A stretch of 64,000 nucleotides of DNA, taken from assembly GCF_009914755.1 (NCBI RefSeq), contig NC_060939.1, one strand, 5' to 3'. The first letter of the stretch is position 1. The number at the start of each line of letters is the position of its first letter. Positions 13,803 to 27,199 of the stretch are shown piece after piece. The notes under the pieces were generated by a model that searched no databases, was not told where the DNA came from, and was given only the letters and a program-made list of their open reading frames with translations. The translations under genes were made by a program, and so were the position numbers. The DNA is from the human T2T-CHM13v2.0 reference genome, Homo sapiens.

Positions 13803-13917
13803 AGATTGAGTTTATCCCGTGATGAAGCTCAAAATCAGTTATGCTTTTCTATCTCCTCTGTTGTATTTCTCCTCAACGTCCACTTCTGTGAGTGAGTAAG
13901 GTTGTCTGTTTTGACAG
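13803..13917 (-). pseudogene. Candidate exon D of the decayed CARD-domain gene
   Basis: Strong acceptor CTCCTTTTTCTGTTCATTCAG and donor CT|GTAAGT; 115 nt; non-repetitive; stops in all frames. Confidence 0.45.
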
Positions 13918-14410
13918 CTGAATGAACAGAAAAAGGAGGTTTTAAAAGCAAAAGTCTGCTGTGTCCCAGTTTCCCAGTTAACTCCATTCTCTCTAGCCAT
14001 TCATGGCATGGAGACAGAAAAATCACAGAGCAATCAGAGTGCATTTTCTGAAATCAGTCTCAACTGCGGAGTGGGAACGTGCCACTCTGAGGAACTTCCT
14101 TCCGGCCCGGCTTTTGTGACATGTCGTGTGGTAGCGGTCGTATTCCATCCCACCTTGTCCTCCAATGCTGAGCTCAAGGATTTGGGAAAGCACATGGTCC
14201 CACCCCGAGGTCACAGGGAGGGCTTTCGCCACAGCAGATGTGTGTGCCGTTCACATGTCCTCGACAGCCAGCGGAGTCACAATTGATTTTGATGTTAATA
14301 TGGCAAAATCCATTAGGGAGAAAAACTTTCCCCCATTCATTGACTCACAACCCAAGTAGAAATTGTTTTTTGACATTATCCACATTCCTGTTCTTCCCAT
14401 GAGGCATATT

Positions 14411-14662
14411 TGAGGCGGGCAGATCACCTGAGGTCAGGAGTTCGAGACCAGCCTGGCCAAAATGCTGAAACACCGTCTCTATTACAAATACAAAAATTGG
14501 CTGGGTGTGGTGGTGCGTGCCTGTAATCCCAGCTACTTGGAGAAGCTGAGGCTGGAGAATTGCTTGAACCCAGGAGGCGGAGGTTGCAGTGAGCCGAGAT
14601 CTCACCACTGCACTCCAGCCTGGGTGACAGAAAAAGACTGTCTCAAAAAAAAAAAAAAAAAA
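14411..14662 (+). mobile_element. AluS, 5' truncated
   Basis: GAGGCGGGCAGATCACCTGAGGTCAGG..A tail. Confidence 0.9.
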
Positions 14663-15649
14663 GAGCTGACATTCTAGGTGTTTAATAATACCATACTATC
14701 ATATCTAGTGTGATAAAATAACAACATGCATTTTCCACAGGACTATATTTCAAAAGAGTATGAGATGATTATATTATATTTTTAGACCAAAGTTTCACTG
14801 ATGCAGAAAAATCTGTAAGTTGCAGGTTTATTTTTAATAAACAAAATCGACTTTATGCACCTTGTAGGTTAACCTAACCGACATTATTGTAATTTATTCA
14901 GTAGGTAGGGAAGTTTGAACTCTACTCTTGAATTCATGGCGGGATATATTAATAGTAGGGAGCATGCGGGGAAGTACGCAGACATTGTTAGCAATAAGCA
15001 GTGAACACACAGAGAGTGGTGATATAAAGATAAACCAATACAGACAGAATGTCCAAATAAGGCCCCAGTAGGGCATGTTTTCCACGTTTCCTAGCAGGGT
15101 TGGGAATACCCTATTTAGATTTTCAGACCAGAAAAGGGTAATGAAGTCAGAGAGATTAGCCTGGGCAGAAAGGGAAGAATGGACCAGGGGCCATCCATTC
15201 TTCCCTGTGCTGGTGAGAGCACAGGTCACGGCTACAGAGAGGGGGGTCAACCTAAGGATGCAGGCAGGGTTGGCTATAACAGTTCCTTGGGAAATGGAAG
15301 TGTAGGAATATTGTTGGCTTAGTTTTAAACCCAGAAGAGGAAATAGCTCTGGAACTTAGGCTGGGGGATGGGGGCAGAAAGGACTCAGGTCTTTATTCCT
15401 AGACTACTCCAGTACATATCTTACCCCATGGGCACCTGTATCAACAGACTCTGAGGGAAAGGTTTGCAGCAGACATGGACCTTGAAAATGCTGGAAAAAG
15501 AGAAGGTGCTGATCCTCCCCAGGAATCAGAAGACCAAAAGCCTTAGAAACTCAAAGAAAGAAAGCTATAGCAGGGGGCCTACTTTGGCTCCCAGACTTCA
15601 GCTCTCAGGGCCAACATAGAGCTATGATTTGAGGACTGTTCTTTCCATC

Positions 15650-16460
15650 TGTATTAGTTAGAATTCCTCCAGAGAAAGAGAACCAACAGAATACAAACAC
15701 ACACACACACACACACACACACAAAGATATTGAGATAAACATCTCAGTATATATGTGTGTATATTTATATACACATATAAAATTTGATGAAATGTATTTT
15801 AATGAATTGGCTTAAGAGACTGTGGAGCAGTAGTAGATCCAAACTATGCAGGGTTGACCAGCAGACTGGAGACCCAAGGAAGAGTTACAGTTAGATTCCA
15901 AATGCAGTCTGTTGGCAGAATTCCTTCTTTCTCAGGAAGGGTTAGTCTCTGTTCTATTGTCTTTAACTGATTGAATGAGATCCCCCACATTTTGAATAGT
16001 AATCTGCTTTTACTCAAAGTTCACCAATTAATTTATTAAATTATTTATTTGAGATGGAGTTTTGCCCTGTCGCCCAGACTGGATTGCAGTGGCGTGATCT
16101 CAGCTCACTGCAACCTCCACCTCCCAGGTTCAAGAGATTCCCCTGCCTCAGCCTCCTGAGTAGCTGGGATTGCAGGCGTGCGCCACCACACCTGGATAAT
16201 TTTTTTTTTGTATTTTTAGTAGAGACGGGATTTCACCATGTTGGCCAGGCTGGCCTTGAACTCCTGACCTCAGGCGATCCACCTGCCTCGGTCTCCCAAA
16301 GTGCTGGGATTACAGGCGTGAGCCACCGTGCCCAGCCCAAAGTTCACCAATTTAAATGTTAATTTCATCCAAAAAAAAAAAAAGAAACATCCAGAATAAT
16401 GTTTGACCAAAGATCTGGGCACTGACCTGGCCAAACTGACACATAAAATTAATTATCACA
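15650..16460 (-). mobile_element. ERVL LTR (MLT2-like), interrupted by an Alu at about 16045-16338
   Basis: TGTATTAGTTAG..CTCCAGAGAAA..AACCAA..(CA)n..GACACATAAAATTAATTATCACA; Alu TSD AAAGTTCACCAATT. Confidence 0.75.
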
Positions 16461-24683: not shown

Positions 24684-24699
24684 CCATGCCAATTTTTTT

Positions 24700-25975
24700 A
24701 AATGACAACTTTATTGAGATGTAATGTGCATACCACAGAAATCACCCTTTTAAATATATGTAACATATTTAATATATTTTAAAATATTTACTATATTAAA
24801 TATTAACATATTTATATTTATATAGCATATTATATAACATATTTATTATATATTATATATTTATTATAATATATATAATATATAATATATTAATATAAAA
24901 TATATACTATATATTATATTAATATATCATTATATATGATTACATATTATAATATATTAATACAATATATTATATTAATATATGATATTATATTATCATA
25001 TATTATATAATATATGATATATCATATATTATATAATATATGATATATCATATATTAATATAATACTAATCATTATAATAATATATTATATAATGATATA
25101 TAATAATAATATAATAATTATATTATATATTTATATATAATATTATATTATATTATTTTTATTATTTATTTTTTATTTTTTATTTTTTTATTTTTATTTT
25201 TTATTTTTATTTTATTTTATTTTATTTTTTAAATTTATTTTTATATTTTTATTTTATTTTATTTTATTTTTTTATTTTTTATTTTTATTATATATTATAT
25301 TATATTATATTATAATATTATTATATAATAATAATGTAATATATTATATTATATATATTTATATCATATTATATAACATATTTATATTTATATAACATTA
25401 TATAACATTTATATTTAATATTAACATATATTTAATATATTAAATATATATAACTATATATAAATATTTATATTAGTTCAGTAGTTTTTGGCATATTCAC
25501 AGTTGTGTGCAAACATCATAATCTAATCTCAGAACATTTTCATTATCTCAAAAAGAAATACTGTATCTGTCAGCAGTCACTTCCCATTCCCCCACTACTT
25601 CTGCTCCTGGCAACCACTAATCTACTTTGTCTCTGTGGATTTTCCTATTATGGACATTTCATAGGAACGGAAACCTACAGATGTACGTTTTGTGATGGGC
25701 TTCTTTCTCTTAGCATAAAGTTTTAAAGGTTCATCTGTGTTGTAGCATGCATCAGTAATTCATTTCTTTTTACAAAATAATATTCTGTTGTGCAGAGAGA
25801 CCATATTTTGTTTATCCATCTGGTTGATGGGCAATTGGGTTGTTTCTACTTTTTGGCTATTATGAATAATGCTGCTATGAACCTTCTTAGACCAGTTTTT
25901 CATGGACACATTTTCATTTATCTTGAGTTTAGGAACCAAGAATGGAGTTGGTAGATCATACGTCAACTCTAGCAT
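24700..25975 (-). mobile_element. Old L1 (L1MB-type) 3' end hosting an AT expansion
   Basis: CAACTTTATTGAGAT..CACCCTTTTAAA [AT tract] GTTCAGTAGTTTTT..ATATTCACAG..CCTGGCAACCACTAATCTACTTT. Confidence 0.75.
24750..25475. repeat. AT-rich low-complexity tract, about 720 bp
   Basis: Almost entirely A/T: (TA)n-like units with a central (TTTTA)n block. Confidence 0.95.
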
Positions 25976-26344
25976 TTTGAAGAACCATGATCATTTTTGT
26001 GCCTCTACGTGCAGAATGAAAGCTAAGTCCAGCTTCCTTAACCTATTAATATTTTATGTCTTGCACTTAAAAATCCTCATTAAAACAAGAAAGATATAAA
26101 TATTTCTATAAGATGATTAGAAATCATCCCTCAGGTTGTGTCAGGAGCTGTGCACGGTTTTATTGGGCATCACAGATGCTTACTTCTATATCACGAGATT
26201 TTAGAGAGAAGCATTGGGTATTTTTATTAAAGTAAAAATCAATGCAGGGTTGAAACTCATGATTACATACTGTGGCTGGGTACCTGATATTTTGGTTAGA
26301 TCATAATTAAGCTTACTACTTTTTAGAGCAAACTATGTCCTTAC

Positions 26345-26684
26345 CTTTGTAATAAAGAAAAAAACAGGTGAGTAGGTAAGGGCAGAATTCCTCCAGATGA
26401 GAGCAGAAAGCACAGAAGGCACTTGCACCTTTGAAAAGGAGCTACAGGAGAAAAGCCTCCACTCTCTTGGGATAGCAATCCTGAGGGAGGATCTCTCGGT
26501 ACTCCTTTAAGGAGAACAGCCATCAGACGCCAAGTGCGGGAGCGCCTGACTCACAGTGAATTCCTTCAGGATCTTCTCTTTATAACTCATCAGTATCCGA
26601 GAGCCACTTGTTCCTCTTCTCCTTTTCTCTCTGTGTTCTTGTCTCACTGTCATAAAACCAAGACTTGGCTCTTCTCTCAAACAT
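26345..26684 (-). pseudogene. Pseudo-exon encoding a CARD-like (death-fold) domain; exon A of a decayed gene
   Basis: Repaired frame MFERRAKSWFYDSETRTQREKEKRNKWLSDTDEL/KEKILKEFTVSQALPHLASDG/LFSLKEYREILPQDCYPKRVEAFLL*LLFKGASAFCAFCSHLEEFCPYLLTCFFLYYK. Lesions: +1 near 26582, -1 near 26520, TAG 26444-26442. ATG 26684 has A at -3. Donor AAG|GTAAG, phase 1. Confidence 0.7.
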
Positions 26685-27199
26685 CCTGGTGTGTGGAGAA
26701 CTCGGGAAATATCTCCCTCCTGGGTCTTGCTGCTCTGTGCCCTCCGTGGGCAATGTCCACACCGCACCGACACCTACAACCAAAACCATACTGCCACCTG
26801 GAATTATTACAGATCTGCGGGAGGAAGGGAGGCTTCAGATTAAAGCCAGGAGCTGCCCAATGCTGACCGTCCTGTCCCAAGACAATTGTGCTGCACTAAT
26901 CAACCCCTTGCCGCAGTAAACTTCAAAAGACGAAAAGAGATGCAGTCTGGCTAACCCCTGATCAATGTAAATCCCTCCTTTATCTCCAAATAATCATTTC
27001 CCCAGCTCCCCACACCCTCAAATGATGACTTTCAACACTTTGAATATAACAGGCTCACAGTCTGTATTCAATGGTCTCATCATAAGGCAGGAAGCCCTAT
27101 CAGGAACTGCGCTGCTCTCCTATCCCTACACTTCCCACCACGTAGTTCGGGGTTAGGCAGGGAATTGCAGTAAAGCTATACACAGTAAAGAAAAGTTGG

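What the first reader, a model, noticed from the sequence alone, without database searches (positions are those of the whole stretch)
13803..26790. Multi-exon fossil gene pointing toward TJP1: a lost CARD gene or a lost CARD-ZO-1 (CARMA/DLG5-like) isoform
Seen in sequence: four non-repetitive minus-strand segments with canonical splice sites and matching phases. A = 26684-26345 (out phase 1); B = 19558-19432 (1 to 2); C = 18843-18396 without the Alu (2 to 2); D = 13917-13803. The A-B junction reads ..FLYYK-E*THRTLQ.. . Introns are present, so this is not a retrocopy. No terminal exon is evident, so the gene may continue off the left end. Established knowledge: CARD10/11/14 and DLG5 combine an N-terminal CARD with PDZ-SH3-GUK; TJP1/ZO-1 is a MAGUK without a known CARD. 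From memory, TJP1 lies proximal to GOLGA8J on the minus strand. Inference: these exons are either a unitary pseudogene or an ancestral 5' extension that made a CARD-bearing ZO-1, which would couple tight junctions to CARD-mediated signalling in other vertebrates.
Basis: inference. Interest (0 to 1): 0.9.

Follow-up and report, generated by a model that had tools for sequence, protein, structure and literature searches.

The report
Dead CARD-domain exon upstream of TJP1
About 100 kb upstream of the tight-junction gene TJP1 lies the broken remnant of an exon that once encoded a CARD death-fold domain with no close relative left in the human genome, but nothing yet shows that it belonged to TJP1.

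Summary
Segment A is real. Read through one frameshift (about 26522-26519) and one TAG (26444-26442), with X at each break, window 26590-26367 (minus) matches a CARD profile over 77 of 84 positions. The profile was built from 27 human CARDs. The score is 33.2 bits. The best score elsewhere in 142 kb, both strands, under the same freedoms was 8.5 bits. Real human CARDs score 13-62 bits when their own family is left out. A pyrin profile gives 0.4 bits. The exon ends in a strong donor and has a strong acceptor upstream. It is single-copy, at most 25% identical to any human CARD, and unannotated in RefSeq. It is best read as a unitary pseudogene relic.

Segments B, C and D are at the stated coordinates but are no better than chance. 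Chains at least as good occur in 21 of 22 control blocks.

TJP1 does lie downstream on the same strand. No evidence links the CARD to it. Exon A's phase fits neither upstream-facing TJP1 exon, and the CARD is not of the CARMA or DLG5 type. No partner domain was found. Orthologues could not be searched here.

The parts
26345..26814 (-). Relic of a CARD-coding exon. The likely extent runs from a strong acceptor (AG at 26816-26815) to a strong donor (GT at 26344-26343).
   Evidence: The acceptor scores 9.8 bits and the donor 7.3 bits on a rough recalled matrix. GC is 0.49-0.51 inside, against 0.34-0.35 in the 3' flank. It lies outside masked repeats and has no RefSeq feature. It is unique in the genome at DNA and protein level.
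26367..26590 (-). The CARD-homologous stretch: profile positions 4-80 of 84, all six helices in order.
   Evidence: The read-through with X at the two breaks scores 33.2 bits, E 1e-8 at Z=6183. The null maximum elsewhere is 8.5 bits. A pyrin profile gives 0.4 bits and an ankyrin profile -1.5 bits.
26651..26653 (-). ATG in the same frame as the first half of the CARD; a candidate start codon in a weak context.
26519..26522 (-). Frameshift inside the CARD, between helices 2 and 3. The two reading frames overlap here.
   Evidence: The best of 36 trial joins places the switch here. The frames are shown.
26442..26444 (-). In-frame TAG inside CARD helix 4.
19432..19558 (-). Unverified as an exon.
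   Evidence: Acceptor 0.5 bits and donor 1.9 bits. Not beyond chance.
18396..18843 (-). Unverified as an exon.
   Evidence: Acceptor 3.9 bits and donor 1.6 bits. Not beyond chance.
13803..13917 (-). Unverified as an exon. If real, the first TAA could be the native stop.
   Evidence: Acceptor 6.0 bits and donor 0.7 bits. Not beyond chance.

Best explanation
Window 26814-26345 (minus strand) is the decayed CARD-coding exon of a gene that no longer works in humans. It is a unitary pseudogene relic.

Shown:
- The exon once encoded a complete six-helix caspase-recruitment domain.
- It is now broken by one frameshift and one TAG.
- It keeps a strong acceptor and a strong donor.
- It is single-copy, and no extant human CARD gene could be its parent.

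Inferred:
- It was the start-codon-bearing second exon of a small or now unrecognisable CARD adaptor gene. That gene lay between TJP1 and the ancestral neighbour TARS3/TARSL2, on TJP1's strand.
- The CARD would have worked as CARDs do, by homotypic CARD-CARD assembly in a death or inflammation pathway.
- Constraint was lost fairly recently, on the order of tens of millions of years ago. Only two disabling lesions lie in about 100 codons, and the profile score is still that of a working CARD.

The rest of the gene is not identified. B, C and D are candidates only. A link to TJP1 is not shown.
For: - Read-through score of 33.2 bits over profile positions 4-80 of 84.
- An empirical null of 240,822 constructs, allowing X for stops and one frameshift anywhere in 142 kb on both strands, gave 8.5 bits as the next best. 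Exon A reached 28.7 bits on that coarse grid.
- The last piece alone ranks 1 of 6183 stop-free pieces, at 11.4 bits, E 0.083.
- Leave-family-out scores of 27 human CARDs run from 13.0 to 62.0 bits, so 33.2 is mid-range. The pyrin profile gives 0.4 bits.
- The donor scores 7.3 bits, the acceptor 9.8 bits, and there is a GC step.
- DNA and protein searches of the whole genome hit only the locus itself.
- Identity to human CARDs is 12-25%, and the best blastp hit is CASP2 at 26 bits.
- There is no RefSeq feature at the locus.
Against: - Pfam's own CARD model gave nothing, either in the genome scan at E<=10 or on the three pieces. The positive result rests on a home-made profile and on a read-through that I constructed, taking the best of 36 joins.
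- No orthologue was found. The one protein word search, with an 88-aa piece that can only see proteins of 48-154 aa, was blank. No vertebrate genomes were available.
- No second domain or further exon could be verified.
- Gene lists for chicken and cattle name no CARD gene next to TJP1 (passages of PMC11050503 and PMC4472243). An independent orthologue may therefore be unannotated, lost there too, or folded into another gene model.
- The dating is a Poisson estimate from two events and is very wide.
Confidence: 0.72

Rival explanations
1. The CARD exon was an ancestral far-upstream 5' exon of TJP1, so that some vertebrates make or made a CARD-bearing ZO-1.
For: - It is on the same strand as TJP1 and upstream of it.
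- TJP1 already uses a first exon 169 kb upstream of its common second exon.
- The unverified exon D ends in phase 0, as that common exon requires.
- Passages of PMC2859873 place ZO and CARMA as sisters, with DLG5 next, and propose a CARD-bearing sponge MAGUK as the ancestral form.
- The chicken and cattle gene lists name no separate gene between TJP1 and TARSL2 (passages of PMC11050503 and PMC4472243).
Against: - Exon A leaves in phase 1 and fits neither the common exon (phase 0) nor the distal 133-nt exon (phase 2).
- The bridge B-C-D is no better than chance and carries three stops.
- The CARD scores 2.6 bits on a CARD-CC profile and 1.6 bits on DLG5, against 27.6 bits on the other human CARDs.
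- TJP1's annotated distal N-terminal extension has no CARD likeness.
- No paper in six searches describes a CARD on ZO-1.
Confidence: 0.06
2. [quoted passage not shown]
For: Passages of PMC5662874 describe an N-terminal CARD, a two-exon gene and loss in placentals, with no relic reported. A CARD exon ending in a donor fits the first of two coding exons.
Against: - There is no ankyrin relic anywhere in 142 kb on either strand. All scores against a profile of 20 human ankyrin stretches were below 0.
- The Pfam scan of 290 minus-strand pieces found no Ank.
- Two lesions in about 100 codons, and a mid-range CARD score, are too little decay for a loss more than 100 million years old. I expect roughly 8-9 lesions; that figure is my inference.
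- CAIAP's genomic neighbours were not given in the passages I read.
Confidence: 0.05
3. It is the prodomain exon of a lost CARD-bearing caspase or NLR whose catalytic or NACHT exons have decayed or been deleted.
For: - The highest pairwise similarity is to CASP2 (18 of 73 identical; blastp 26 bits).
- A CASP2+CRADD+CASP9+APAF1 profile gives 26.7 bits.
- A CARD exon followed by small exons is the layout of the inflammatory caspases (recalled).
Against: - None of the 52 Peptidase_C14, 40 NACHT or 41 Death matches at E<=10 in the genome lies on chromosome 15 near the window.
- The four-member apoptotic profile is generic. Other human CARDs score 7.5-42 bits on it.
- The known human caspase-15 remnant is at 3p22.1 (passage of PMC12292325).
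Confidence: 0.1
4. It is a chance resemblance: an intergenic stretch that happens to read like a CARD once a frameshift and a stop are forgiven.
For: Pfam's model finds nothing. Each piece alone is weak, at 11.4, 2.0 and 0.9 bits.
Against: With the same forgiveness applied everywhere in 142 kb on both strands, the next best score is 8.5 bits against 28.7-33.2 bits. The three pieces hit the profile in the right order and spacing. The match ends at a strong donor.
Confidence: 0.02

Closest known systems
CARDs of CASP2, CRADD, CASP9 and APAF1 (apoptotic initiator and adaptor CARDs)
   Same: They give the highest similarity. CASP2 is 18 of 73 identical and CRADD 16 of 67. blastp to CASP2 gives 26 bits. 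A profile of these four gives 26.7 bits.
   Different: Identity is only about 25%. The four-member profile is generic. There is no caspase, death-domain or NB-ARC/NACHT relic nearby. In CASP2, CASP9 and APAF1 the CARD match is split over two exon hits; here it sits in one exon.
CARD-CC / CARMA proteins (CARD9, CARD10, CARD11, CARD14) and DLG5
   Same: They have an N-terminal CARD, and in CARMA and DLG5 it is followed by PDZ-SH3-GUK. A MAGUK gene (TJP1) lies downstream of the relic on the same strand.
   Different: The relic scores 2.6 bits on a CARD-CC profile and 1.6 bits on DLG5 alone. All four CARD-CC genes have an intron at profile position about 44-50 and the relic has none. No coiled coil or PDZ has been shown to be joined to it.
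CASP15 remnant at 3p22.1 and CASP16P (human relics of death-fold genes that are intact in other mammals)
   Same: The same kind of object: a degenerated human remnant of a cell-death or inflammation gene, recognisable only by comparison (passages of PMC12292325).
   Different: Those have known intact orthologues and a known family. For this relic neither is known.
[quoted passage not shown]
   Same: A CARD-first gene reported as missing from placental mammals (passages of PMC5662874).
   Different: No ankyrin relic was found, and there is too little decay for so old a loss.

Membership tests
CARD (caspase recruitment domain, death-fold; Pfam PF00619) | Significant, near full-length match to a CARD sequence profile | tested here: met
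   33.2 bits over positions 4-80 of 84, on a profile of 27 human CARDs cut at Pfam hit coordinates. The null maximum is 8.5 bits. The score is mid-range among real CARDs scored with their own family left out.
CARD (caspase recruitment domain, death-fold; Pfam PF00619) | Match to Pfam's own curated model above its cut-off (23.9 bits) | tested here: not met
   The genome scan at E<=10 gave 44 hits, none in the window. The three stop-free pieces gave 0 families. The X-bridged read-through could not be given to that tool.
CARD (caspase recruitment domain, death-fold; Pfam PF00619) | Distinct from the sister death-fold class PYD | tested here: met
   A pyrin profile of 20 human domains gives 0.4 bits, against 33.2 bits for CARD.
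Unitary pseudogene | Disabling lesions in a once-coding sequence | tested here: met
   A frameshift at about 26522-26519 and a TAG at 26444-26442, both inside the domain.
Unitary pseudogene | No functional parent or paralogue in the same genome | tested here: met
   DNA and protein searches of the whole assembly hit only the locus itself. Identity to 27 human CARDs is at most 25%. There is no likeness to CARD19. Closed regions of the reference are not seen by these searches.
Unitary pseudogene | Intact orthologue at the syntenic place in other species | not testable with these tools
   No vertebrate genomes or alignments were available. The protein word search was blank and limited by length.
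CARD-CC / CARMA | CARD of the CARD9/10/11/14 type, with the family's intron inside the CARD | tested here: not met
   2.6 bits on a four-member CARD-CC profile. All four human genes give two exon hits split at model position about 44-50. The relic's CARD is uninterrupted in one exon.
CARD-CC / CARMA | Coiled coil, then PDZ-SH3-GUK, in the same transcript | not tested
   Coiled-coil content was not scored. The Pfam scan of 290 minus-strand open pieces between exon A and TJP1's distal exon found only L1 fragments.
5' exon of TJP1 (CARD-ZO-1) | Upstream of TJP1 on the same strand | tested here: met
   TJP1 is at chr15:27490136-27760675 on the minus strand. Exon A is at chr15:27864345-27864814 on the minus strand.
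5' exon of TJP1 (CARD-ZO-1) | Reading phase compatible with a TJP1 acceptor exon | tested here: not met
   Exon A leaves in phase 1. The common exon 27591418-27591474 is entered in phase 0 and the exon 27747862-27747994 in phase 2. Only the unverified exon D (phase 0) would fit.
5' exon of TJP1 (CARD-ZO-1) | Transcripts joining the CARD exon to TJP1 in some species | not testable with these tools
   No RNA data and no non-human gene models were available. Six literature searches found none.
CAIAP | Sixteen ankyrin repeats after the CARD | tested here: not met
   All scores against the ankyrin profile were below 0 across 142 kb on both strands, with stops read as X.
CARD-prodomain caspase | Peptidase_C14 domain downstream | tested here: not met
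   52 genome hits at E<=10, none on chromosome 15.

The most novel reading that the evidence does not exclude
The relic is what is left of a CARD exon that was once spliced onto ZO-1. Vertebrate TJP1 would then have kept, until the primate lineage, the CARD-PDZ-SH3-GUK architecture proposed as ancestral for the DLG5/ZO/CARMA clade. A CARD-bearing ZO-1 that couples tight junctions to CARD signalling might still exist in other vertebrates.
Probability: 0.06. Interest if true: 0.85.

Novelty: new member of a known kind. Interest (0 to 1): 0.45.

Why it matters
If the relic is a unitary pseudogene, humans have lost a CARD-domain gene that belongs to none of the CARD families still present in the genome. 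The human death-fold repertoire is thought to be fully catalogued, and RefSeq annotates nothing at this locus.

Finding the intact orthologue in another mammal would name a new adaptor of apoptosis or inflammation. It would also date its loss on the human lineage, as was done for caspase-15 and caspase-16.

The locus sits at the edge of the 15q13.3 breakpoint-4 duplication block, next to an old synteny break (TJP1-TARS3). The loss may therefore be tied to that rearrangement.

The bolder possibility, a CARD once attached to ZO-1, would bear directly on how CARMA, DLG5 and ZO proteins arose. The present evidence gives it little support.

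Tried and rejected
- **Pfam directly.** PF00619 over the whole genome, and Pfam-A on the three stop-free pieces, gave nothing. The pieces are too short. The tools do not accept a read-through by reference, so I used a home-made profile in scripts.
- **Pairwise tblastn** of 20 human CARD-exon frames against window 13000-27500 gave at most 22 bits, not significant on their own, though several aligned in the same register.
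- **Protein word search** with the 88-aa open piece holding the CARD's first half found no candidate sharing three 5-residue words. It sees only proteins of 48-154 aa, so longer orthologues are not excluded.
- **A four-row alignment** (DLG5 frame plus the three pieces) was made as a possible profile query. Two pieces were misaligned, so no search was sent with it.
- **PDB sequence search** with two pieces gave only noise.
- **Partner domains.** Peptidase_C14, Death and NACHT genome scans had no hit near the window. An ankyrin profile scored below 0 everywhere.
- **Pfam scan of open pieces.** I scanned 290 of 296 minus-strand open pieces of at least 45 aa and under 30% masked, between exon A and TJP1's distal exon. 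Only L1 fragments appeared. The 6 pieces not scanned lie in TJP1's distal promoter and first exon. Pieces crossing locus boundaries were dropped before the count.
- **CARD19**, a possible ohnologue near TJP2, shows no likeness.
- **Caspase-15** was rejected because its remnant is at 3p22.1 (passage of PMC12292325).
- **Subfamily assignment** failed. The apoptotic-group profile that scores best is generic.
- **Literature.** Six searches found no paper on a CARD gene or pseudogene beside TJP1 or a CARD on ZO-1. Of each paper cited I read only passages returned by 'find', not whole texts. Supplementary tables of the gene-loss papers (for example PMC2134963) were closed and might list this locus.
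- **Profile training set.** I used 34 of the 44 PF00619 hits: 20 single-exon domains and 7 domains joined from two hits. I left out CASP1 proper (near-identical to CARD16), CRADDP1, NOD1 (2 hits), IFIH1 (2 hits), one chr11 hit with a stop, QRICH1, TNFRSF21 and TYW1B.
- **Label error.** My working labels were partly wrong and were corrected. 'CASP1' was CARD16. The chr11 labels were CARD18, CARD17P, CASP1P2, CASP5, CASP12 and CASP4.
- **Splice matrices** are rough frequencies recalled from memory, not a trained model.

Full report
**Position and annotation.** The window is chr15:27838001-27902000. TJP1 occupies chr15:27490136-27760675 on the minus strand. RefSeq annotates nothing between SYNGR2P1, just left of the window, and GOLGA8J at 36675. 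Apart from the Alu in C, the four segments fall outside masked repeats. The DNA of A and of B occurs once in the assembly.

**What the sequence shows.**
- The CARD-like reading of A needs a switch of frame near 26522-26519 and passes a TAG at 26444-26442.
- The ATG at 26684 is in a third frame. An ATG at 26653 is in the frame of the CARD's first half.
- A ends in AAG|GTAAGG, which scores 7.3 bits on a rough, recalled donor matrix.
The exon probably runs 26814-26345.
- GC is 0.49-0.51 inside the exon and 0.34-0.35 just downstream. There is no CpG island.

**Is it a CARD?**
- Pfam's model says nothing. None of the 44 genome hits at E<=10 is in the window, and the three stop-free pieces match no family.
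- Pairwise tblastn with human CARD exons is weak, at most 22 bits. However, CRADD, CRADDP1, QRICH1, DLG5, CARD8, CARD9 and CARD11 all align in one register on the helix 4-5 stretch.
- I built a profile from 27 human CARDs cut out of the assembly at the Pfam hit coordinates.
- Against 6183 stop-free pieces from 142 kb (the window plus the 78 kb down to TJP1, six frames), the last CARD piece ranks first, at 11.4 bits, E 0.083. The other two pieces hit the profile weakly but in the right order: positions 4-27, 31-42 and 59-80.
- Bridging the frameshift and the stop with X gives one alignment over positions 4-80 of 84. It scores 33.2 bits, E 1e-8 at Z=6183, as the best of 36 trial joins.
- As a fair null I gave every place in the 142 kb, on both strands, the same freedoms: stops as X and one frameshift at any of eight places. 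That made 240,822 constructs. The best score outside exon A was 8.5 bits, and exon A reached 28.7 bits on that coarse grid.
- Real human CARDs scored against a profile lacking their own family range from 13.0 bits (CARD10) to 62.0 bits (BIRC2). APAF1 scores 32.7 and NOD2 35.8.
- A pyrin profile gives the relic 0.4 bits and an ankyrin profile -1.5 bits.

The CARD is real and little decayed.

**Whose CARD?**
- Identity to the 27 human CARDs is 12-25%. The closest are CASP2 (18/73), DLG5 (17/70), CRADD (16/67) and CARD6 (16/71). The best blastp hit is CASP2, at 26 bits.
- Whole-genome protein searches with two pieces find only the locus itself. CARD19 shows no likeness.
- The relic therefore has no parent in the human genome.
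- Subfamily profiles give 26.7 bits for CASP2+CRADD+CASP9+APAF1. They give 2.6 bits for CARD9/10/11/14, 12.6 bits when DLG5 is added, 1.2 bits for the chr11 caspase cluster, and 27.6 bits for all 22 non-MAGUK CARDs.
- The four-member apoptotic profile is generic. Other CARDs score 7.5-42 bits on it. I therefore assign no subfamily. I note only that nothing ties the relic to the MAGUK-linked CARDs.
- In one search the four CARD-CC genes each give two exon hits split at model position about 44-50. The relic's CARD is in one exon.

**The rest of the gene.**
- B, C and D have canonical dinucleotides but only weak to moderate scores: acceptors 0.5, 3.9 and 6.0 bits, donors 1.9, 1.6 and 0.7 bits.
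- I counted three-exon chains of 100-150-nt exons with splice scores at least as good, consistent phases from phase 1, and at most two stops. There are 216 such chains in the real 12.3 kb, and at least 11 in 21 of 22 control blocks. Matching phases and canonical sites are therefore not evidence here.
- No partner domain was found. None of the 52 Peptidase_C14, 41 Death and 40 NACHT genome hits is near the window. Ankyrin-profile scores are below 0 everywhere. In the Pfam scan, 290 of 296 minus-strand open pieces of at least 45 aa yielded only L1 fragments.

**Link to TJP1.**
- All annotated TJP1 first exons join the common exon 27591418-27591474 in phase 0. The distal 133-nt exon is entered in phase 2.
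- Exon A leaves in phase 1 and fits neither. Only the unverified exon D (phase 0) would fit.
- TJP1's own distal N-terminal extension of 102 aa has no CARD likeness.
- Passages of PMC2859873 make ZO and CARMA sisters and propose a CARD-bearing ancestor. Passages of 10.1101/2023.03.06.531260 describe CARMA as a CARD-CC protein fused to a ZO-1/Dlg5-like MAGUK. These make the idea attractive, but they are not evidence for this locus.
- Chicken and cattle gene lists put TARSL2 next to TJP1 and name no CARD gene (passages of PMC11050503 and PMC4472243). This is compatible with an unannotated gene, a lost gene, or one merged into another model.

**Age (inference).** I assume about 0.14 disabling events per substitution per site. 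Two lesions in about 309 nt then suggest roughly 0.05 substitutions per site since constraint was lost. That is on the order of tens of millions of years, with a Poisson range from a few million to over a hundred million. This argues against CAIAP, which was lost before the placental radiation (passages of PMC5662874). So does the lack of any ankyrin relic.

**Verdict.**
It is a genuine, unannotated CARD exon relic with no human parent, most likely a unitary pseudogene.
- The multi-exon model is unproven, and the CARD-ZO-1 idea has no positive support.
- Orthologues, conservation and transcripts could not be examined with the tools at hand, and they will decide the matter.

Noticed in passing
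   Followed up: partly
   Followed up: partly
window about 15608-15811: A (TG)n/(CA)n microsatellite shows up as long Cys-Val open frames on the minus strand.
   Followed up: no
loci L021-L027 (chr15:27760001-27820000), minus strand: The Pfam scan of open pieces picked up L1 ORF1 (Transposase_22, E 2e-13) and reverse-transcriptase fragments in stretches that are less than 30% masked in the repeat table.
   Followed up: no
L021:293-465 and L091 (chr15:27760293-27760465 and 27747862-27747994): TJP1's annotated distal first exons add a 102-aa N-terminal extension. It is arginine-rich at its start and has no CARD or pyrin likeness. Its function is unknown to me.
   Followed up: partly
G000 C3:49104921-49105046 (QRICH1), C6:47069924-47070121 (TNFRSF21), C7:74020477-74020641 (TYW1B): These are sub-threshold PF00619 hits (19.7-21.1 bits) in genes not usually listed as CARD genes. 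The QRICH1 frame also aligned to the relic's helix 3-5 stretch in tblastn.
   Followed up: no
genes table, chr15:27.87-28.6 Mb: Immediately right of the relic begins the GOLGA8 / ULK4P / DNM1P / CHRFAM7A / ARHGAP11B duplication block. The relic therefore sits in the last unique sequence before the 15q13.3 breakpoint region. It also lies at an old synteny break, since TJP1 neighbours TARSL2 in the chicken and cattle lists.
   Followed up: partly
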